A stretch of 27,476 nucleotides of DNA from a virus (lineage: Duplodnaviria > Heunggongvirae > Uroviricota > Caudoviricetes): the IMG/VR virus record IMGVR_UViG_3300028962_000002. One strand, given 5' to 3'. Each line of letters begins with the position of its first letter. The stretch's first letter is position 1. Below, piece after piece: positions 5,873-25,482 of this stretch. The translations under genes and the position numbers were made by a program. Below the pieces are notes generated by a model. The model saw only the letters and a list, made by a program, of their open reading frames with translations, had not been told where the DNA came from and did not search any database.

Positions 5873-6418
5873 TCATGGCATGGCCATGAGCATTTTCACG
5901 TCCGCATCACCGTCTGCTGACGTCTGTGACACGCCACCCCGCACCGCTGCCGGTGAATGATTCGCCATGAAATGTTCAAACAGGGCGGTTGTGGATGCAG
6001 AGACCGGTTCGGCCTTACCTGATCCCGCAGCCAGCACAGCCCGGGCGTTCTCCACGGTCATTCCCGGGCAGGCCGCCAGTTTTTCAGCCTGCGCTTCTGC
6101 CCCTTTTGCCTCATCCAGGGCCATGATCTGATCACGAAGTGAGGGCCCGGCATCCGCCAGTGGTGCAGCCGCCAGTTGTTCACGACCGTTCGCTTCTTCA
6201 CACGCCATAATGCGATCGGCTTCACTCTGCGCGGATGCCACCGGCTGCTGCGGTGCCGCCGCGGCCAGAATCGCCCGGGCCTGTTCAACGCTCATGCCCT
6301 GTTGCCCTGCCAGCATCGTGGCAAGCTGTTCACGTCCTTTCGCTTCCTGGCATGTCAGGATCCCCATCACTCGCTGGTTCTCCTGCACGGCGGCTTCCGT
6401 TGCAGTTAATTGCGGCAT
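5873..6418 (-). CDS. Nu3: Scaffolding protein Nu3-like, in-frame internal start within C
   Basis: Internal ATG at 6416-6418 (M302 of C, MPQLTATEA...) preceded by GAGGAGG; corresponds to the position of the lambda Nu3 start within C. Confidence 0.6.
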   Translation of the reverse strand: MPQLTATEAAVQENQRVMGILTCQEAKGREQLATMLAGQQGMSVEQARAILAAAAPQQPVASAQSEADRIMACEEANGREQLAAAPLADAGPSLRDQIMALDEAKGAEAQAEKLAACPGMTVENARAVLAAGSGKAEPVSASTTALFEHFMANHSPAAVRGGVSQTSADGDADVKMLMAMP

Positions 6419-11682: not shown

Positions 11683-11694
11683 AGGTCGCCGCCC
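11683..11694. other. cosN 12-nt cohesive end (reverse complement of lambda GGGCGGCGACCT)
   Basis: Window sequence aggtcgccgccc; flanking tcataaatagcgaaaacccgcgaggtcgccgccc is the reverse complement of the lambda left end GGGCGGCGACCTCGCGGGTTTTCGCTATTTATGA. Confidence 0.93.
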
Positions 11695-11842: not shown

Positions 11843-12094
11843 ATGAAAATCAGAAATATTCTCGCTATCTCCCTTGCAACATCATCCTTCAGTTGCCTGG
11901 CATTTAAATCCTCGCCCAATGTGCTACCAGGACCAACGAATCAACTAACTGCGGTAGAAAGTAAAATTATCGGACATTTTTATGCCCCACACAGTGCATT
12001 ACCCGGAACAACCATCACAGGGACATGTGACGCCTCCCCCGTCCCGGGATGCACCTGTCCGTTTTGTACTATGCTGCGTAGCCAAAACCGATAA
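11843..12094 (+). CDS. Hypothetical small Cys-rich protein with N-terminal signal-peptide-like segment
   Basis: ATG preceded by GAGG; MKIRNILAISLATSSFSCLA hydrophobic leader; opposite strand to the late genes, in the bor-like slot next to cos. Not recognised. Confidence 0.4.
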   Translation: MKIRNILAISLATSSFSCLAFKSSPNVLPGPTNQLTAVESKIIGHFYAPHSALPGTTITGTCDASPVPGCTCPFCTMLRSQNR

Positions 12095-12155: not shown

Positions 12156-12335
12156 ATGGTTAGTAAAAGCAAGGCGCATTGCCGCCGCATGCTGCAGGCA
12201 TTGCAACAGACGAGAGCAGGTATTTTTGACCAGTTGGAAAACTGCCAGCATACTTTGCCCGAGTATATCGCCATCTCATCGGAAACCAGTGCAACTCTTA
12301 TTCATCGGGTTCCACCAGAGAAAAAGAAGAAATGA
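12156..12335 (+). CDS. Hypothetical 59-aa protein
   Basis: Strong RBS AGGAAGGAAAG directly before the ATG (MVSKSKAHCRRMLQALQQ...); followed by a hairpin at 12342-12367. Not recognised. Confidence 0.45.
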   Translation: MVSKSKAHCRRMLQALQQTRAGIFDQLENCQHTLPEYIAISSETSATLIHRVPPEKKKK

Positions 12336-12341
12336 ACAGTG

Positions 12342-12367
12342 AGGCGTTGTGTGGCATACAACGCCTT
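12342..12367. terminator. Candidate bidirectional intrinsic terminator
   Basis: Stem aggcgttgt / acaacgcct with a 7-nt loop; T/C-rich tract after it on the plus strand and a T-rich tract after it on the minus strand (downstream of the TonB-C lipoprotein gene). Confidence 0.4.
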
Positions 12368-12457
12368 CTTCCATCATTCCTCGTCAGCCATGACAAAAAT
12401 ATAACCGCTGGCTCTTTCATTTTTCTCCTGCGTCCAGCCCCTCTCTACCTGGAAGCA

Positions 12458-12784
12458 TCAAGGACGTGACGGCGTAAAGATAAATTGTCTCTTCACTCCC
12501 TGACAGGGGCGATTCTTTTCAAATCGCCATTTCGCCATGGCCTTCACCACTTCATCACGAAACAAATTATGAGGCTCTGAGCGGAGAAAAACGATCCGTG
12601 TCACAGTCCCATCAGCACCAATATCGAACTTAACCTCAACCAGCCCCTTGATATAATTTGCTGCAGCATATTCCGGATATCGTGGATACACCGTCACTAA
12701 TTGCCGGGGCTCATCAGCTTTTTGCTGCGAGCATCCCACTGCCAGGACAGATAACAGAAAAAGTAGTAAAAGGCGTCTTTTCAT
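12458..12784 (-). CDS. Lipoprotein with TonB C-terminal-like domain
   Basis: Start MKRRLLLLFLLSVLAVGC has a lipobox (LAVGC) and an AGGA RBS; mature part VTVYPRYPEYAAANYIKGLVEVKFDIGADGTVTRIVFLRSEP...FRDEV...AMAKWRF resembles TonB_C domains; downstream of Rz/Rz1. Confidence 0.65.
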   Translation of the reverse strand: MKRRLLLLFLLSVLAVGCSQQKADEPRQLVTVYPRYPEYAAANYIKGLVEVKFDIGADGTVTRIVFLRSEPHNLFRDEVVKAMAKWRFEKNRPCQGVKRQFIFTPSRP

Positions 12785-13094
12785 TTTTATTCCTACGGGT
12801 CTTATTCTGACAATATATCCTGTGTTCCAGACTGCCACATCACCACATCCTGTGCCATTATCTGACTCACATTACATACATCGCATCGGGATACAGTAGT
12901 AGCACTTTCTGTAATACAGCTTCCTGTTTCTTCCACCATCGCACCGGGATAAACCCGCGAATCATTAACGCGGTAAAAACCCGGTGTGCATCGTTTTTAA
13001 TTATCCCCGCACACTCGCGCAGAGGAGTCTCCCTGTCGGGCTGCGGTCTCTGTTAATGAGGGAATATAGCGACGATACGGCGCATCAACAAAAC

Positions 13095-13568
13095 TTATTT
13101 CAGGCACTGAGTGCGGATATAGTCCTGTGCCCCTTCCAGTTGCTTGTGCATCGTCATCAGCCGCTCTCTGAGGGTGAAATAATCCCGTGTAACGGTGTCT
13201 GCCAGTTGGGGGCCGGTTGCATTATCCACGCCGGAGGTGGTGGGGGCTTCACGCACGGAGCCTGGACAGGTGGCGTTGATCCGCAGGCGCTTACGACCAG
13301 CGGCAACGTCAGCGCGAAGAGTTTCATTTTCAGCTCTCGCATCGGCTAATTCCCTCGAGTATTTTGCATCGAGCGCAGCAACATCGCGCTGGCGCACCTG
13401 CATATCAGTAATGGTTGCGTTCGCCAGCTTCAGTTCACTGGCTTTGTTATCGCGCTGCGCTTTGTAGGTAATCGCGTTATCACGGTAATGGTCTGTTGCC
13501 ATCCACAGCGCACCACAGGCCACCAGCAGAATAACGATAAACGCGGAAAGCATTCGGTTTATGTTCAC
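13095..13568 (-). CDS. Rz: Spanin inner-membrane subunit Rz
   Basis: [52 protein letters not shown]...[19 protein letters not shown] is near-identical to lambda Rz. Confidence 0.93.
13157..13342 (-). CDS. Rz1: Spanin outer-membrane lipoprotein Rz1, embedded in Rz in the +1 frame
   Basis: ...[47 protein letters not shown] matches lambda Rz1, including the proline-rich core and lipobox. Confidence 0.88.
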
Positions 13569-21355: not shown

Positions 21356-23143
21356 ATGGACGATATTAATATCAGCCTCGACGAACTTAACACTATTGAT
21401 TTATCCCCCTTAATCCAGAGTAAGCTGCCAGTTACCTGCTTTGATATCACAAAGTATCTTTCTAGCCTAGGTGATGGAAGAGCGGAGATAAGACTGCTAA
21501 CCCATATTTGCGGTTTTCACTTTCGTCCCGAAAATCCACAGGTACCATTTGGTCCGTGCTTTCAAAGCAGCCAAGGTAGATCTGCAATTCCGGATGACAT
21601 TAACGGGTTGTCGCTGGAGGTACTTTCTCAATTTTGCCCGACGATAGAGCTACCCGAACTTCAAGCTCGTATTGCTGATACACTTTGGGTTCGTAAAATT
21701 GGTGGAATCCGTTTTCCTTTGCTGGCAGTCCGTGCTTATTATGCGTCCAGTATAGCTATTATGACATCGCAAGGGACGTGGGTTAGTGCTTTAGAACGCC
21801 TAGAGCGTGCGCTTAGGCTGTGTTGTTTTTTTCGAAAGAATACTGATTTCAGGGATGAATTTGATCAGCTTTCGGCACATCTACTAGCAGAGTATGAACG
21901 TACCAGAGAACAAGGCGATTCACCTTATCCGCTGCGACTCCTGCAACTCGATATCGACTGTAAAGTGAGTGAGCCATCTTTTATTGCCCAGGAACTCCTG
22001 TTTCTGACAAAAAACTATCTGGCTCAAAAATTATTTTCATTTGCCGTCGATGCCTGTAAAACCGCAATCACGATTGCGAATAGGTGCTGTGACAGAGATA
22101 CACAGTTTGAATTCTGGCGGCTTCTTGCCGATACACATCTGGAAGAGTCAAAATTCCAAGATGGCGGTATGATTTCGGCAGCCTGCATGCAGAATGCTAT
22201 TGAAGCACTGGCTAATATTCCAGGAACCCGAATAGAACGTCTTGCGCTGTATGAAGAAATGCGTGATTACCAAATCGAATCCCGTCACCAGATGTCTATC
22301 CTTCAGTCTCCCCCTCAAGATATTAGTGAGATTGTCCATCAAGCCAAGAGTCGGGTAGTCGGAAGAGATATGTTTGATATGGTTTTCAGACTTGCGATGC
22401 TGGTCTGTCGGCCAACCAGCATTGAGAGACTTAAGGCTCAAGCAATAGAACAAAAGGCCAACAGCATAGCTTGGATGTTTGGATCAACACATATTGATCA
22501 TGAGGGAATGACACTTGCTCGCATACCCGCAGGATTGGGGATTGATGATGCAAATGGGGCAGTTATTTGGCCCATAATGATGACGAGAATGCGTATCGAC
22601 CATGAGTTGGCAGTAGCTGGGCAAATTATTCCTGCTACAGATGAGATCACAATGAAATATCCAATCTCGGAGGCGTTTTTTCGCGATATGTTCATCAATC
22701 ATCCCTTCATCCCGTTTGGGCATGAAGAGTTTTTCATCAAGGGTATGGTTTGCGGTTTCAATGGAGATTTTATGACGGCATGCCACGTGTTGATTCCCCA
22801 GATCGAAAATAGTCTGAGATATGTGGCTAAAATTAAAGGTGAGGAACCATCGCAGCTTCACGGGGACGGTTCGCAAGAGCGAAATGGACTCAAGGGATTA
22901 CTAGATAATCCACTGATTATTGAAGCTTTCGGCGTAGACATAATTGGCAATCTTCAGGCCTTACTGGTAGATAAAATCTATGGTGATTTACGAAATCAAC
23001 TAGCTCACGGATATGTGCCTGCCGGTTACTACAATCAACCTCCCTGCATTTTTGCATGGTGGCTTGTATTGCACATTCTAATGAACCCTACGGCGAGATA
23101 CTGGCAAGCCACTTATGGCCAAGAGAGTGAGGCTCAGACTTAA
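21356..23143 (+). CDS. Hypothetical 595-aa protein with C-terminal Rx4H (HEPN-like) motif; candidate defence/abortive-infection effector
   Basis: AAGGTGA RBS before the ATG; long clean frame; lower GC than the phage backbone; only plus-strand gene in a minus-strand block; C-terminal ...IYGDLRNQLAHGYVP contains R-N-x-x-A-H. Confidence 0.85.
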   Translation: MDDINISLDELNTIDLSPLIQSKLPVTCFDITKYLSSLGDGRAEIRLLTHICGFHFRPENPQVPFGPCFQSSQGRSAIPDDINGLSLEVLSQFCPTIELPELQARIADTLWVRKIGGIRFPLLAVRAYYASSIAIMTSQGTWVSALERLERALRLCCFFRKNTDFRDEFDQLSAHLLAEYERTREQGDSPYPLRLLQLDIDCKVSEPSFIAQELLFLTKNYLAQKLFSFAVDACKTAITIANRCCDRDTQFEFWRLLADTHLEESKFQDGGMISAACMQNAIEALANIPGTRIERLALYEEMRDYQIESRHQMSILQSPPQDISEIVHQAKSRVVGRDMFDMVFRLAMLVCRPTSIERLKAQAIEQKANSIAWMFGSTHIDHEGMTLARIPAGLGIDDANGAVIWPIMMTRMRIDHELAVAGQIIPATDEITMKYPISEAFFRDMFINHPFIPFGHEEFFIKGMVCGFNGDFMTACHVLIPQIENSLRYVAKIKGEEPSQLHGDGSQERNGLKGLLDNPLIIEAFGVDIIGNLQALLVDKIYGDLRNQLAHGYVPAGYYNQPPCIFAWWLVLHILMNPTARYWQATYGQESEAQT

Positions 23144-23361
23144 AGTGAATAAGTTTACGAAGTTGGCACTTCCGGATGCATGTCCATATGAGTTGAGGCG
23201 ATTTGGTTAATAAGGTTGAGTGCTGCTGAAATTATTCGATGTCCGCTTTTGGCACAAAGCGGACAACCACGCCAGATCTACCCTGTGCCATGAAAAATGA
23301 GAATGTCAATTCACTCCTGAACTAATGCTTTTTAATCTAGTAACGTCTAAAATACCTAACA

Positions 23362-23763
23362 TTATCCCTGATAAAATGCCAGTATGCGCTGCATAACTTC
23401 ACTCATCCGGCACTCGCGACAGATTATGTTTAGGCGACTGTCGTAGCGACGTATTTCTCCATCAGGTAACGACCAGATAAGGTCCGGATCAACCACAGCT
23501 GTTTTCTTCACCTTTGCCCTCGAGAGTTTTTTGCGGGCGTTTTGCCAGTCCTTACGCGCCTGTTCAGACGGGAATAACCCGTAGCCGGAGTTGTATACAT
23601 CGCCACTGGCTACCAGCTCTCTGGCAAGAACGCTCATCAGATATCTAGTCGCACCTGTTTTAGCTTCCAGTTGCCGTAACGTCTCACGACCGCTCTGGCG
23701 CACGAGTTCCACCACCTGCCCTTTAATTTTTTCCCGCTCTTCTTGTGTAAAAACTTTTGCCAC
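23362..23763 (-). CDS. Hypothetical 133-aa basic protein downstream of the replication gene
   Basis: GTG start with AAGGGGGA RBS; MAKVFTQEEREKIKGQVVELVRQ...; ren/nin-like position. Not recognised. Confidence 0.5.
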   Translation of the reverse strand: MAKVFTQEEREKIKGQVVELVRQSGRETLRQLEAKTGATRYLMSVLARELVASGDVYNSGYGLFPSEQARKDWQNARKKLSRAKVKKTAVVDPDLIWSLPDGEIRRYDSRLNIICRECRMSEVMQRILAFYQG

Positions 23764-23803
23764 AAGTCCCCCTTAAAATTACCTCATGACCTGAAATCAA
23801 AAC

Positions 23804-24769
23804 TTATCCTCTGAAACCAGGCGGAATTTCTGTATCCGGTTCAGAAATATGATTAACACAACGCTGTACAGGTGAACGCCCCAGGCGGATGACCAGTTCG
23901 TCCCATTTTTCGCGGAGCTTTGACGGGCTCATGATGTTTTTTACCCAGAATGGATCCCGCTGTACCCGACCAAACATTTCACAAATTTGTCTGTGGCTTC
24001 TGCCATCCAGCATCCGCATTGTGCGCACATCATTGGCCCAGACAGTCCAGTTAGGCTCTTTTGGTCGCATGATCTCGCCATCATCACTGGCGGCCTGTTC
24101 GTAGAGACCCACGATCCGCCCCCATATCCACTGCGCACACGCCAGATCCTCCTGGCTACCCCACTGGCGTTTTTTCGCACTAAACACAACTGCGCCAGGG
24201 TGCCGGATTAAAAAATCCTGTTCAGCCGTCTGCGGGTCCGGTTGCGAAGCTTCCGGACGAAAAGTGTTTTTATTCTCTGTAGTAATCTCTGTTGTATTCT
24301 CTGTAGGATCATCGGGCCATTTTGACCCGATGACATTGGGTCGTTTTGAACCAATGGAGCGTTTCATTTTGACCTCTTCCATCGTGTCATTTTGACCTGA
24401 TGGAGCGGCGCATTTTGAACCGATGGATTCGCTCAATTTGCCATCATCTAAAAGCTCGCTTCCATAGTTAATCGTGTAGAAATTGGTCATATCGCGCTTT
24501 GATTTATTGAGCTTTTCACAACGCAAAAGCCCCAGCGTTTTCAGACTTGCAAACGCGCGCTTTAACGTTGACTCTGACCAGAATGGGAACTGTTCCAGCC
24601 ATTGTTCCGTTGTGTTGTAAATCCAGCGAACACCATCACATTCCATGCCGGAATTGGTATCTCTCAACCAGTAATGCAACTGCTGCAACACAATGGCTTC
24701 ATTTAAGCCAATCTTCATCGCAAGCTGTGTGTTTATAACCAGTGGGCGTTCAGCAAAAAGAAGGCTCAT
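23804..24769 (-). CDS. Replication initiator (lambda O-like) with N-terminal HTH region and internal origin iterons
   Basis: Start taken at MSLLFAERPLVINTQLAMKIGLNEAIVLQQLHYWL; the gene contains 5 direct DNA repeats that encode a repeated IGSK peptide, as lambda ori iterons lie within O. Confidence 0.7.
   Translation of the reverse strand: MSLLFAERPLVINTQLAMKIGLNEAIVLQQLHYWLRDTNSGMECDGVRWIYNTTEQWLEQFPFWSESTLKRAFASLKTLGLLRCEKLNKSKRDMTNFYTINYGSELLDDGKLSESIGSKCAAPSGQNDTMEEVKMKRSIGSKRPNVIGSKWPDDPTENTTEITTENKNTFRPEASQPDPQTAEQDFLIRHPGAVVFSAKKRQWGSQEDLACAQWIWGRIVGLYEQAASDDGEIMRPKEPNWTVWANDVRTMRMLDGRSHRQICEMFGRVQRDPFWVKNIMSPSKLREKWDELVIRLGRSPVQRCVNHISEPDTEIPPGFRG
24317..24427. repeat. Candidate origin of replication: five direct iterons of consensus CATTTTGA(A/C)C..GATGG spaced 23-24 bp
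   Basis: ccattttgacccgatg, tcgttttgaaccaatgg, tcattttgacctc, tcattttgacctgatgg, gcattttgaaccgatgg, read directly; an AT-richer segment follows at 24431-24530. Confidence 0.65.
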
Positions 24770-25271
24770 AATTCCATCCAGCTTTTTGTTGGTATTGCTG
24801 TCGATACGCAAGTTTGAAAGCAATTGCTTTTTCTATAAGTTCGTCAGTTTCACGATCCACTACGGCAGGATCAGCAAAAAGCAGTCCGGACTCCACCACA
24901 TCGCCATATTCTTTGTTTAACCCGGCGATCATGTACGTGATGCTTTTTCCGTCACTAATTTCACGATACAACCTGAAATCATTAATCCGGATAGCCTCCA
25001 TAATTGCAGGCACTAGCGCCGTGAACTTTTCACGCTTATCCCTGGTGTCGATAGCCTTCCAGCGTTCGAATATCTTCACTCGATTAACGCCAAGCGCTCG
25101 CTGATCAACCGCGCCACCTTCATCTGTGACACGCTGAACATCGATGTTCGGGCGCTCTTTCAAAGCCCAGAATGCTTCAGTGATTAATATCGTCGCCTGC
25201 TCCTGTGTCATTCCTGGTCGACATATCCAGGCATCCAGAGCCTCACGAGCCTGTTCAGGAGTGATTTTCAT
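24750..25271 (-). CDS. YdaT-like protein (cII position, downstream of Cro-like gene)
   Basis: 173 aa; ...KREKFTALVPAIMEAI... resembles the Rac YdaT segment (...QREKIQKLIPAILAIL...) as recalled; follows the Cro-like gene as ydaT follows ydaS. Confidence 0.55.
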   Translation of the reverse strand: MKITPEQAREALDAWICRPGMTQEQATILITEAFWALKERPNIDVQRVTDEGGAVDQRALGVNRVKIFERWKAIDTRDKREKFTALVPAIMEAIRINDFRLYREISDGKSITYMIAGLNKEYGDVVESGLLFADPAVVDRETDELIEKAIAFKLAYRQQYQQKAGWNYEPSFC

Positions 25272-25482
25272 TGTTCAACCGCCCCGCCCGCTTCGTCTTA
25301 CGATATTCGTCATAAACCTTGGGATCATACAGAAGCTCGCCGCCAGATGCCTCCTGTAGACGCATCGCGCGACCTTCAGGAACCAGCTCTTGCCATTGAG
25401 AAACAGCAGATGGGTCAACGCCAGCAGCTTTCGCTACTTTGGCTTTCGTACCGTAAAAATTAATTACGTCTGATTTAAACAT
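25255..25482 (-). CDS. dicC: Cro-like regulator (DicC-like)
   Basis: Start MFKSDVINFYG with GGAGGT RBS; C-terminal ...PEGRAMRLQEASGGELLYDPKVYDEYRKTKRAGRLNNENHS; divergent from the repressor gene. Confidence 0.75.
   Translation of the reverse strand: MFKSDVINFYGTKAKVAKAAGVDPSAVSQWQELVPEGRAMRLQEASGGELLYDPKVYDEYRKTKRAGRLNNENHS

What the first reader, a model, noticed from the sequence alone, without database searches (positions are those of the whole stretch)
12458..12784. TonB C-terminal-domain lipoprotein next to Rz/Rz1 and cos
A small lipoprotein (lipobox LAVGC) with a TonB_C-like fold motif is encoded after the spanin genes at the genome end. A periplasmic TonB-C mimic could interfere with TonB-dependent receptors and act as superinfection exclusion against TonB-dependent phages or colicins, analogous in logic to Cor-type lipoproteins that block FhuA.
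Basis: inference. Interest (0 to 1): 0.55.

Follow-up and report, generated by a model that had tools for sequence, protein, structure and literature searches.

The report
Phage outer-membrane lipoprotein copying TonB's tip
A lambdoid E. coli prophage (the same gene is in phage 21 and in about one in five complete E. coli genomes) encodes a small outer-membrane lipoprotein that is only the receptor-binding end of the host protein TonB; it most likely acts as an unpowered decoy that jams TonB-dependent entry routes, but nobody appears to have tested this.

Summary
On the minus strand, 12458-12784 encodes a 108-aa protein with a lipoprotein signal (lipobox AVGC, Cys18, +2 Ser). The rest is a complete TonB C-terminal domain: Pfam TonB_C E=7e-13, and 41% identity without gaps to E. 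coli TonB 150-230. The AlphaFold model superposes on TonB from the BtuB and FhuA complexes at 0.9-1.0 Å. The gene lies 310 nt after Rz/Rz1, on the late-gene strand, and 763 nt before cosN.

It is not a decayed tonB fragment (dN/dS 0.12; lipobox kept throughout the family). It is not a spanin, despite its PHROG label. It lacks TonB's membrane anchor and proline-rich spacer, so it cannot transduce energy.

The gene is common. Relatives at 32-45% identity sit in the same Rz-to-terminase slot in Rahnella and two unnamed prophage contigs; chromosomal relatives also exist. Databases call it only "TonB family protein", and I found no functional study.

Best reading (confidence about 0.4): a decoy tethered to the outer membrane that binds the TonB boxes of outer-membrane transporters and competes with TonB. 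Over-produced periplasmic TonB domain does this experimentally. The carrier phages have lambda/434-type tail tips, so any exclusion would act on other invaders, not on the phage itself. The function remains inference.

The parts
12458..12784 (-). Coding sequence of the 108-aa TonB_C lipoprotein (identical to RefSeq WP_000830178.1 and phage 21 CPT_21_73), stop codon included
   Evidence: ORF list and sequence. Annotated identically in E. coli 7/2 and in phage 21. dN/dS 0.12 against the 72% variant.
12731..12784 (-). Signal peptide (residues 1-17) plus the lipidated Cys18. Lipobox A-V-G-C, +2 Ser.
   Evidence: The PROSITE lipoprotein rule passes in 12 of 13 family members, and Asp is never at +2. 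The lipobox is kept in variants of 67-100% identity and in distant relatives.
12470..12706 (-). TonB C-terminal domain (residues 27-105; the Pfam match covers residues 33-99, i.e. 12488-12688)
   Evidence: Pfam and TIGRFAM hits above their cut-offs. 41% identity without gaps to TonB 150-230. AlphaFold pLDDT 97-98 over the domain. Foldseek matches: 2gsk_B at rmsd 1.0 Å with TM 0.92, and 2grx_C at rmsd 0.9 Å.
12791..12794 (-). Shine-Dalgarno AGGA, 6 nt upstream of the ATG
   Evidence: Read from the sequence. A ribosome-binding site is annotated at the same place in phage 21.
12804..12812 (-). TGtCAGAAT, a weak candidate extended -10 element. It aligns with TGtTAGAAT in the 72% variant.
   Evidence: Alignment of upstream regions. 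The variant-2 site is called promoter-like by the scan (ATGACC-16-TAGAAT with TG). The window copy falls below the scan threshold. Unverified.
12912..13066 (.). Conserved lambdoid non-coding block upstream of the gene, probably a mosaic junction
   Evidence: 87-89% identical between the two gene variants, against 73% in the coding sequence and 54% at third codon positions. Positions 12946-12998 also occur near the right end of many lambda-like phages.
13095..13553 (-). Rz (inner-membrane spanin), the gene immediately upstream on the same strand
   Evidence: PF03245 E=2e-47 and phrog_13. RefSeq calls it 'lysis protein'.
13157..13342 (-). Rz1 (outer-membrane spanin), embedded in Rz
   Evidence: PF06085 E=4.4e-20 and phrog_3198.
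11683..11694 (-). cosN cohesive-end sequence GGGCGGCGACCT, i.e. the end of the virion genome
   Evidence: Single exact match, none in 100 shuffles. Recognising it as the lambda cohesive end is from my own knowledge. The phage 21 record annotates cosQ 23 nt from its right end.
12156..12335 (+). 59-aa ORF (WP_000253883.1, phrog_4843, function unknown), convergent with the TonB_C gene. It travels with gene variant 1.
   Evidence: Found beside the gene in every listed IMG/VR locus carrying the 96-100% variant whose fetched DNA reaches that far, and absent from the 72%-variant loci.
11843..12094 (+). Unannotated 83-aa ORF with a signal-peptide-like N-terminus and a Cys-rich C-terminus. This DNA is part of the same co-travelling module.
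   Evidence: The DNA is conserved at 95-100% in the variant-1 loci. No Pfam or PHROG hit. Whether it is a gene is open.

Best explanation
The gene makes a 91-residue mature lipoprotein. [quoted passage not shown] A linker of about 12 residues carries a complete TonB C-terminal domain.

Lacking TonB's membrane anchor and proline-rich spacer, it cannot be energised by ExbB-ExbD. It sits beside the periplasmic mouths of the TonB-dependent transporters (FhuA, FepA, Cir, BtuB and others). There it can pair its free edge strand (residues 94-103, equivalent to TonB beta3) with their TonB boxes, as TonB itself does. This occupies the boxes unproductively and competes with the scarce real TonB.

The expected result is reduced TonB-dependent traffic. 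That would include infection by TonB-dependent phages (T1 and phi80 types), killing by group B colicins and siderophore-microcins, and siderophore uptake.

The carrier phages enter through lambda/434-type tail tips, so the effect would be exclusion or defence against other invaders, not against the phage's own kind.

The gene is transcribed at least as the tail of the late lysis operon. Several family branches also have a promoter-like site directly upstream, so some expression from the prophage is possible.

Shown here: domain identity, fold, predicted lipoprotein signal, purifying selection, genomic position, distribution. Inferred: outer-membrane location, TonB-box binding, competition with TonB, biological benefit, timing.
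For: Domain and fold:
- TonB_C is above the curated cut-offs.
- 41% identity, gap-free, to TonB 150-230, the construct that crystallises bound to BtuB and FhuA.
- The confident model superposes on the receptor-bound TonB domain at 0.9-1.0 Å.
- The residues I recall as functionally noted in TonB are kept: the P-x-Y-P motif (P161/Y163/P164), F180, G186, F202, W213, Y215 (as Phe) and F230 (alignments).

Precedents:
- Over-produced periplasmic TonB domain inhibits iron import through these transporters (Howard 2001, cited in PMC9841981).
- Phages already use outer-membrane lipoproteins acting on the periplasmic face of FhuA (Llp, Cor).

Real, selected gene:
- dN/dS 0.12 at dS 1.4.
- The lipobox is conserved across the family, with no Asp at +2.
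- Variant 1 is in at least 1221 of 5426 complete E. coli genomes, and the exact protein is seen on at least 1000 contigs.

Accessory-gene behaviour:
- The module recombines with several different terminase and lysis cassettes.
- The same slot is used at 32-45% identity in other prophages.
- Promoter-like sites lie directly upstream on the sense strand in three of the four branches examined.
Against: - No binding or phenotype data exist. Ten literature searches found nothing on this protein.
- The position equivalent to TonB Q160, the classical TonB-box suppressor site (own knowledge), is Tyr or Leu here.
- The residues that differ between the two E. coli variants cluster in that N-terminal segment and in beta3. 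Specificity may therefore differ from TonB's.
- A constitutive general TonB inhibitor should cost iron uptake. Yet the gene is very common, and related lipoproteins sit in ordinary chromosomal contexts in Pantoea and Salmonella. This suggests a milder or different role.
- The gene lies on the late strand with no predicted terminator after Rz. The window copy has only a sub-threshold promoter-like element. It may therefore be made only during lytic growth, when exclusion is worth less.
- It is not in PADLOC.
Confidence: 0.4

Rival explanations
1. Receptor-specific blocker. The domain has been retuned to bind one particular transporter (or another envelope protein with a TonB-box-like strand) and switches it off, as Llp and Cor do with FhuA, rather than competing with TonB globally.
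For: The differences between the two E. coli variants fall mainly in the segment equivalent to TonB 158-162 and in beta3, the parts next to the TonB box. The core is invariant. A specific blocker would avoid the cost of a general block on iron uptake, which fits the high prevalence.
Against: Beta-augmentation relies largely on backbone contacts, and TonB itself binds every TonB box (own knowledge). Nothing in the sequence points to a particular target. The carriers' J tips are not FhuA-type and vary among carriers, so the gene is not matched to the phage's own receptor.
Confidence: 0.15
2. Host-fitness or virulence moron unrelated to exclusion. It would be an outer-membrane lipoprotein that modulates iron uptake or signalling or envelope properties for the lysogen, in the way Bor/Iss at the same genomic spot promotes serum resistance.
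For: It occupies the classical accessory slot between Rz and cos, where lambda and phage 21 carry bor. Related small TonB_C lipoproteins occur in non-prophage chromosomal contexts in Pantoea and Salmonella, so a cellular role exists. Variant 2 sits in Stx1a-converting phages.
Against: There is no similarity to Bor (a Bor marker hits a separate gene). Unlike bor it is on the late strand. No host-interaction domain is present. A TonB C-terminal domain this close to TonB most simply does what TonB's tip does.
Confidence: 0.15
3. Accessory to lysis or envelope breakdown. It would be made with the lysis proteins and would help or time outer-membrane disruption, or tether envelope layers. This is what its PHROG label 'Rz-like spanin' implies.
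For: phrog_1267 carries the label 'Rz-like spanin'. The gene follows Rz/Rz1 on the same strand in phages as distant as 32% identity, with no predicted terminator in between.
Against: The phage has its own complete Rz/Rz1 pair. The protein has no Rz1 Pfam hit, no proline-rich rod and no C-terminal membrane segment. It is a globular TonB domain. Many lambdoid phages lyse without it: only 15 of 50,697 deposited phage records carry it. The label is most likely an annotation carried over from a neighbouring lipoprotein gene.
Confidence: 0.08
4. Functionless remnant of a captured host tonB gene. Some records annotate it as 'TonB fragment' or 'partial tonB-like membrane protein'.
For: Those annotation strings appear in phage records. 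It covers only the last third of TonB.
Against: Strong purifying selection (dN/dS 0.12). It has gained a conserved lipoprotein signal that TonB does not have. It has its own ribosome-binding site. The family spans several genera at 32-45% identity with the architecture intact.
Confidence: 0.03

Closest known systems
C-terminal domain of the E. coli energy transducer TonB (residues about 150-239; PDB 1U07, 2GSK, 2GRX)
   Same: Homologous: 41% identity without gaps. The alpha/beta fold superposes at about 1 Å. The P-x-Y-P motif and all the aromatic core residues are kept, and a free edge strand equivalent to beta3 is present.
   Different: It has no N-terminal membrane anchor and no proline-rich spacer, and therefore no link to ExbB-ExbD. 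Instead it has a lipoprotein signal that should fix it to the outer membrane. It ends four residues before TonB does. The Q160 equivalent is Tyr or Leu.
Engineered periplasmic TonB fragments used as dominant-negative inhibitors (Howard et al. 2001, J Bacteriol 183:5885)
   Same: The same part of TonB is placed in the periplasm without its anchor. Such fragments are reported to inhibit iron import through TonB-dependent transporters (as cited in PMC9841981). From my own recollection of that paper, they also affect FecA signalling, phi80 and colicin M.
   Different: Those fragments are laboratory constructs: soluble, over-produced and 100% TonB sequence. This is a natural, diverged, lipid-anchored version carried by phages. 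Its effect has not been measured.
Llp of phage T5 and Cor of phi80/N15: superinfection-exclusion lipoproteins that inactivate FhuA
   Same: Small phage-encoded lipoproteins of the inner leaflet of the outer membrane that act on the periplasmic face of a TonB-dependent transporter.
   Different: The fold and sequence are unrelated: no family hit, and the FhuA:Llp entry is not among the Foldseek matches. Llp works allosterically on a single receptor, the one T5 itself uses. This gene's carriers have lambda/434-type J tips, and the predicted target, the TonB box, is common to all such transporters.
Bor of phage lambda (Iss family): a lipoprotein moron between Rz and cos
   Same: The same accessory slot at the right end of lambdoid genomes, and also an outer-membrane lipoprotein. 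In phage 21 the two genes are neighbours.
   Different: No sequence relationship. bor is on the opposite strand and is expressed from the prophage (own knowledge). This gene is co-oriented with the late operon.

Membership tests
TonB_C domain (Pfam PF03544 / TIGR01352) | Profile HMM score above the curated gathering cut-off | tested here: met
   PF03544: 49.2 bits against 24.6, E=7.3e-13. TIGR01352: 47.4 bits against 27.1.
TonB_C domain (Pfam PF03544 / TIGR01352) | [quoted passage not shown] | tested here: met
   AlphaFold model with pLDDT 89 overall and 97-98 in the domain. Foldseek matches to 1u07, 2gsk_B and 2grx_C: probability 1.00, TM 0.91-0.92, rmsd 0.9-1.6 Å.
TonB_C domain (Pfam PF03544 / TIGR01352) | Binds the TonB box of transporters by strand pairing | not testable with these tools
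   No complex prediction or binding assay was available. The edge strand and the P-x-Y-P segment are present.
TonB energy transducer (NCBIfam PRK10819 equivalogs) | Full-length score above the equivalog cut-off | tested here: not met
   Best score 69.2 bits against cut-offs of 265-448. Only the last roughly 85 positions of the models are matched.
TonB energy transducer (NCBIfam PRK10819 equivalogs) | N-terminal uncleaved membrane anchor that couples to ExbB-ExbD, plus a proline-rich periplasm-spanning spacer | tested here: not met
   The protein is 108 aa. Residues 1-18 are a lipoprotein signal and residues 19-26 a short linker. There is no Pro-rich region and no other hydrophobic segment.
Bacterial lipoproteins sorted to the outer membrane | Signal peptide with a lipobox and an invariant Cys (PROSITE PS51257 rule); no Asp at +2 | tested here: met
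   The rule passes for the window protein and for 12 of 13 family members. The +2 residue is Ser, Ala or Thr. Actual lipidation and location are not testable here.
Spanins (the label attached to phrog_1267) | Outer-membrane spanin: Rz1-type short proline-rich lipoprotein paired with, and usually embedded in, an inner-membrane spanin gene. Single-component spanin: lipobox plus a C-terminal membrane segment. | tested here: not met
   No PF06085 hit. A separate complete Rz/Rz1 pair lies upstream. The mature part is a globular TonB domain with no membrane segment (maximum hydropathy 0.84).
Cor / Llp superinfection-exclusion lipoproteins | Sequence or fold similarity to Cor or Llp | tested here: not met
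   Pfam lists only TonB_C. PHROGs adds only phrog_1267, one unannotated family and several sub-threshold 'Rz-like spanin' or unknown-function hits. The Foldseek PDB list holds TonB and TolA domains only.
Cor / Llp superinfection-exclusion lipoproteins | Encoded by a phage that itself uses the blocked receptor (FhuA) | tested here: not met
   The J C-termini of two carriers are 52-57% identical to lambda and 434 J, and only about 65% identical to one another. Receptor assignments for lambda and 434 are from my own knowledge.
Known anti-phage defence systems (PADLOC-DB 2.0) | Match to any model in the library | tested here: not met
   No hit at E <= 0.1.

The most novel reading that the evidence does not exclude
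Temperate enterobacterial phages carry a natural 'anti-TonB'. It is a copy of the host's own TonB tip, cut loose from its motor and lipid-anchored next to the transporters. It gives the cell broad cross-protection against everything that enters through TonB: T1- and phi80-like phages, group B colicins, siderophore-microcins, and possibly siderophore-linked antibiotics such as albomycin or cefiderocol. With at least 22% of complete E. coli genomes carrying it, it would be one of the commonest prophage-borne exclusion functions. It would also be a case of a virus disabling a host machine by molecular mimicry of one of its parts.
Probability: 0.25. Interest if true: 0.75.

Novelty: new variant of a known kind. 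Interest (0 to 1): 0.5.

Why it matters
If the decoy reading is right, it adds a new mechanism to phage superinfection exclusion. Cor and Llp each target one receptor; this would be competitive mimicry of a shared energy coupler, acting on a whole class of entry routes at once.

It would also bear on colicin and microcin ecology in the gut, and perhaps on susceptibility to siderophore-conjugated antibiotics, because the gene is so widespread in E. coli, including in Stx1a-converting phages.

Practically, it is a very common gene (phage 21, and over a thousand complete genomes) that is labelled in misleading ways: 'TonB family protein', 'TonB fragment', 'Rz-like spanin'. A few simple plating, killing and uptake assays would settle its role.

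Tried and rejected
- **Literature.** Ten full-text searches used combinations of TonB, prophage, lambdoid, moron, lipoprotein, Rz1, bor, superinfection exclusion, 'tonB-like membrane protein' and WP_000830178. None found a paper on this protein. Howard et al. 2001 could not be opened, so I cite it only through PMC9841981.
- **First AlphaFold run.** With a 6-sequence alignment the model was poor (pLDDT 61). It was replaced by a 50-sequence run.
- **BFVD fold search.** No significant viral match.
- **PADLOC.** No hit.
- **Spanin reading from PHROGs.** Rejected: a separate Rz/Rz1 pair exists, and the protein has no membrane segment and no Rz1 profile hit.
- **Self-receptor blocker.** The J tips of carriers are lambda/434-like and vary among carriers.
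- **Link to TonB-independent iron uptake.** Phage 21 carries sitABCD. However, only one IMG/VR contig appears in both the sit list and the TonB_C list, and the prophage matching this window has no sit genes. There is no general link.
- **Phage-encoded TonB-box partner.** No [DE]T[ILMV][TVIL]V motif occurs in any open frame of at least 40 aa in the window.
- **Fur box upstream.** By eye, GATAATG at about 12858-12864 matches only about 10 of 19 consensus positions. Not pursued.
- **Genome-collection scan.** The first attempt failed because the alignment was too diverse. The second gave only 8 loci.

Full report
**What is there**

The finding's coordinates exactly bound an open reading frame on the minus strand. 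The ATG is at 12784 and the stop at 12458-12460, giving 108 codons. An AGGA ribosome-binding site lies six bases upstream.

The product begins MKRRLLLLFLLSVLAVGC. This has a basic N-terminus, a hydrophobic core and a lipobox. It satisfies the PROSITE prokaryotic-lipoprotein rule with Cys18 as the lipidated residue. Serine follows at +2, so the usual sorting rule sends it to the outer membrane. The mature part has no further hydrophobic segment.

The rest of the protein is a TonB C-terminal domain:
- Pfam PF03544 scores 49.2 bits against a cut-off of 24.6 (E=7e-13).
- TIGR01352 also passes its cut-off.
- BLASTP aligns residues 23-103 with E. coli TonB 150-230 at 41% identity without a single gap.
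- The best PDB sequence hits are the TonB domains of 1U07, 2GSK and 2GRX.

A first AlphaFold run on six close sequences was poor. With a 50-sequence alignment the model reached pLDDT 89, and 97-98 across the domain. Foldseek placed it on TonB from the BtuB complex (rmsd 1.0 Å, TM 0.92) and from the FhuA complex (rmsd 0.9 Å).

- Rz (PF03245) and the embedded Rz1 (PF06085) end 310 nt upstream on the same strand.
- The cohesive-end sequence GGGCGGCGACCT occurs once in the window, 763 nt downstream at 11683-11694.
- The terminase genes follow.

**What it is not**

It is not TonB. Against the full-length TonB equivalog models it scores 69 bits where 265-448 are required, and only the last roughly 85 model positions match. 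It has neither a membrane anchor nor a proline-rich spacer.

It is not a spanin, although its PHROG family (phrog_1267, E=5e-43) carries the label 'Rz-like spanin'. The phage has its own Rz/Rz1 pair. This protein has no Rz1 profile hit and no C-terminal membrane segment, and it is globular.

It is not a dead fragment of tonB, as some records call it:
- Between the window copy and the 72%-identical variant, dN/dS is 0.12 at a synonymous divergence of about 1.4.
- The lipoprotein signal, which TonB lacks, is conserved in every variant.

**How common it is, and where it sits**

The DNA is 99.7-99.9% identical in phage 21 (locus CPT_21_73, annotated 'TonB C-terminal domain protein'), ev017, Perceval and three PhiR phages.

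At least 80% of window 12300-13000 is found in 1221 of 5426 complete E. coli genomes, annotated as 'TonB family protein' WP_000830178.1. The exact protein is recorded on at least 1000 contigs.

A second variant, 72% identical, is in Stx1a-converting phages, JLK-2012 and Lys8385Vzw. Only 15 of 50,697 deposited phage records carry any homologue, so this is mainly a prophage gene.

In all 80 IMG/VR loci the gene lies downstream of the lysis genes and on the same strand as Rz/Rz1, wherever the fetched DNA reaches them (a few loci are cut before them). A bor gene may or may not lie between. In the loci carrying the 96-100% variant, cos and the terminase follow. That variant occurs with at least three different terminase types (large subunit about 66%, 89-94% and 97-100% identical to the window's; small subunit 34-100%) and with different endolysins. 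This is how a mobile accessory module behaves.

An exhaustive profile search found a wider family of 107-133-residue proteins with the same build, namely a lipobox followed by a single TonB_C domain, at 31-45% identity.
- In two IMG/VR prophage contigs of unnamed host and in a Rahnella genome, these again follow Rz/Rz1 and precede the packaging genes.
- Other hits come from Raoultella, Shimwellia, Erwinia and a Klebsiella phage.
- The family is not exclusive to phages. The Pantoea agglomerans and Salmonella Choleraesuis members lie among ordinary chromosomal genes.
- No source gives any member a functional name.

**Expression**

The scan predicts no terminator between Rz and the gene on the late strand. 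The curated phage 21 record annotates none either. The late transcript from pR' should therefore read through it.

The scan calls a promoter-like site directly upstream on the sense strand in three branches:
- the 72% variant: ATGACC-16-TAGAAT, preceded by TG;
- the L083 branch;
- the L101 branch.

The background rate is about two to four such sites per 1.3-1.8 kb on both strands together.

In the window copy the aligned element is TGtCAGAAT, which falls below the scan threshold. Whether the prophage expresses the gene is therefore open.

**Most likely mechanism**

TonB's C-terminal domain recognises the TonB box of every TonB-dependent transporter by adding that box as an extra strand next to its beta3 (PMC11658791). 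The phage protein keeps this domain nearly intact. The P-x-Y-P segment, G186 and the aromatic residues F180, F202, W213, Y215 (as Phe) and F230 are all conserved. The list of functionally noted TonB residues is from my own knowledge of the TonB literature.

The protein should be lipid-anchored in the inner leaflet of the outer membrane on a linker of about 12 residues, next to the periplasmic openings of the transporters. With no connection to ExbB-ExbD it can bind but not pull. The expected effect is competitive uncoupling of transporters from TonB.

The principle has been shown with artificial constructs: over-production of the periplasmic TonB domain inhibited iron import through these transporters (Howard et al. 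2001, as cited in PMC9841981). Phages are also known to use outer-membrane lipoproteins at the periplasmic face of FhuA (Llp, Cor).

The J tail tips of two carriers are 52-57% identical to those of lambda and 434 and differ from each other. They are not of the FhuA-using type. The gene is therefore not matched to the phage's own receptor, and any exclusion would be directed at other invaders. I put about 0.4 on this full reading. The domain, fold, lipobox, selection and position are shown. Location, binding, competition and benefit are inferred.

**Points against, and rivals**

- A general TonB block should be costly. Yet the gene is very common and has chromosomal relatives. This favours either low or conditional expression, or a narrower target.
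- The residues that differ between the two E. coli variants fall mostly in the segment equivalent to TonB 158-162 and in beta3. This fits retuned specificity, which is the receptor-specific rival (0.15).
- A lysogen-fitness role unrelated to exclusion remains possible, as for Bor in the same slot (0.15).
- A lysis-associated role, suggested by the conserved position after Rz/Rz1, also remains possible (0.08).
- The pseudogene reading is effectively excluded (0.03).

**Side checks that gave nothing**

- No TonB-box-like motif occurs in any open frame of the window, so there is no obvious phage-encoded partner.
- There is no general association with the sitABCD iron/manganese transporter that phage 21 happens to carry.
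- PADLOC gave no hit.
- BFVD gave no structural match.

**Comparison and novelty**

As a sequence feature this gene is already annotated in GenBank and RefSeq and grouped in PHROGs. Its identity as a TonB_C lipoprotein is therefore not new.

What appears to be unreported, within the reach of the searchable library, is any function. If it works as proposed, it is a new variant of a known kind. It would be a phage lipoprotein that shuts down outer-membrane transporters from the periplasmic side, but by mimicking the shared host coupler rather than by binding one receptor. The hypothesis is cheap to test and the gene is widespread, so I score interest at 0.5.

Noticed in passing
window 11843-12094 (+): Unannotated 83-aa ORF. 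It has a signal-peptide-like start (MKIRNILAISLATSSFSCLA) and four cysteines near its C-terminus (C-x7-C-x-C-x2-C). This DNA travels with the variant-1 TonB_C gene at 95-100% identity, but the ORF has no Pfam or PHROG hit. The phage 21 annotators called a different small ORF on the other strand here.
   Followed up: partly
window 12156-12335 (+), with a terminator-like hairpin at 12497-12509 (+): 59-aa ORF (WP_000253883.1, phrog_4843, function unknown), convergent with the TonB_C gene. A plus-strand terminator-like hairpin lies inside the 3' end of the TonB_C coding sequence. The module may therefore hold a small counter-oriented, prophage-expressed unit, as bor is in lambda.
   Followed up: partly
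window 12630-12657 (+); L061 6155-6128 (-): Strong antisense promoter-like site inside the TonB_C gene: TTAACC-16-TATAAT with an upstream TG, 10 of 12 matches. It is at the same codon positions in the 72% variant (TTCACA-16-TATAAT, 11 of 12) despite synonymous divergence of about 1.4. In phage 21 it points towards bor. It could be a coincidence of codon choice.
   Followed up: no
window 12912-13066: A non-coding block upstream of the gene is 87-89% identical between the two gene variants, while the coding sequences are 73% identical (54% at third positions). Part of it (12946-12998) also sits near the right end of many lambda-like phages that lack the gene. It is probably a shared recombination junction of the lambdoid mosaic.
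   Followed up: partly
L061 about 5964-5980: In the 72% variant, a perfect 8-1-8 palindrome (AGAATAAG a CTTATTCT) overlaps the promoter-like -10 element just upstream of the gene. It looks like an operator. It is absent from the window copy.
   Followed up: no
L138 12968-16417 (phage 21 record 21967-25416): Phage 21 carries the sitABCD iron/manganese ABC transporter in its b region. This is a TonB-independent metal uptake system in the same genome as the TonB-domain lipoprotein. The pairing is not general: only one shared IMG/VR contig was found, and the prophage matching this window has no sit genes.
   Followed up: yes
window 12785-13094 compared with L001 1091-1895: The window prophage has no bor gene between Rz and the TonB_C gene. 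Phage 21 and many IMG/VR loci have bor on the opposite strand there. The slot therefore holds interchangeable lipoprotein genes.
   Followed up: partly
phrog_1267 (database label; not a window coordinate): The PHROG family holding this protein is labelled 'Rz-like spanin' in the lysis category. That conflicts with its TonB_C domain and with the presence of separate Rz/Rz1 genes. Pipelines that use PHROGs will propagate the error.
   Followed up: yes
proteins P0038, P0041, P0044: The profile search also found secreted proteins of 460-510 residues made of three to five tandem TonB_C domains with no membrane anchor. They scored higher than true enterobacterial TonBs. Their origin and role were not examined.
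   Followed up: no
L164 and L165 4001-4399; L166 4001-4333: Small TonB_C lipoproteins of the same family lie among ordinary chromosomal genes in Pantoea agglomerans (next to IclR-regulator, dehydrogenase and MFS-transporter genes) and in Salmonella Choleraesuis (next to yegR). This suggests the family also has a cellular role.
   Followed up: partly
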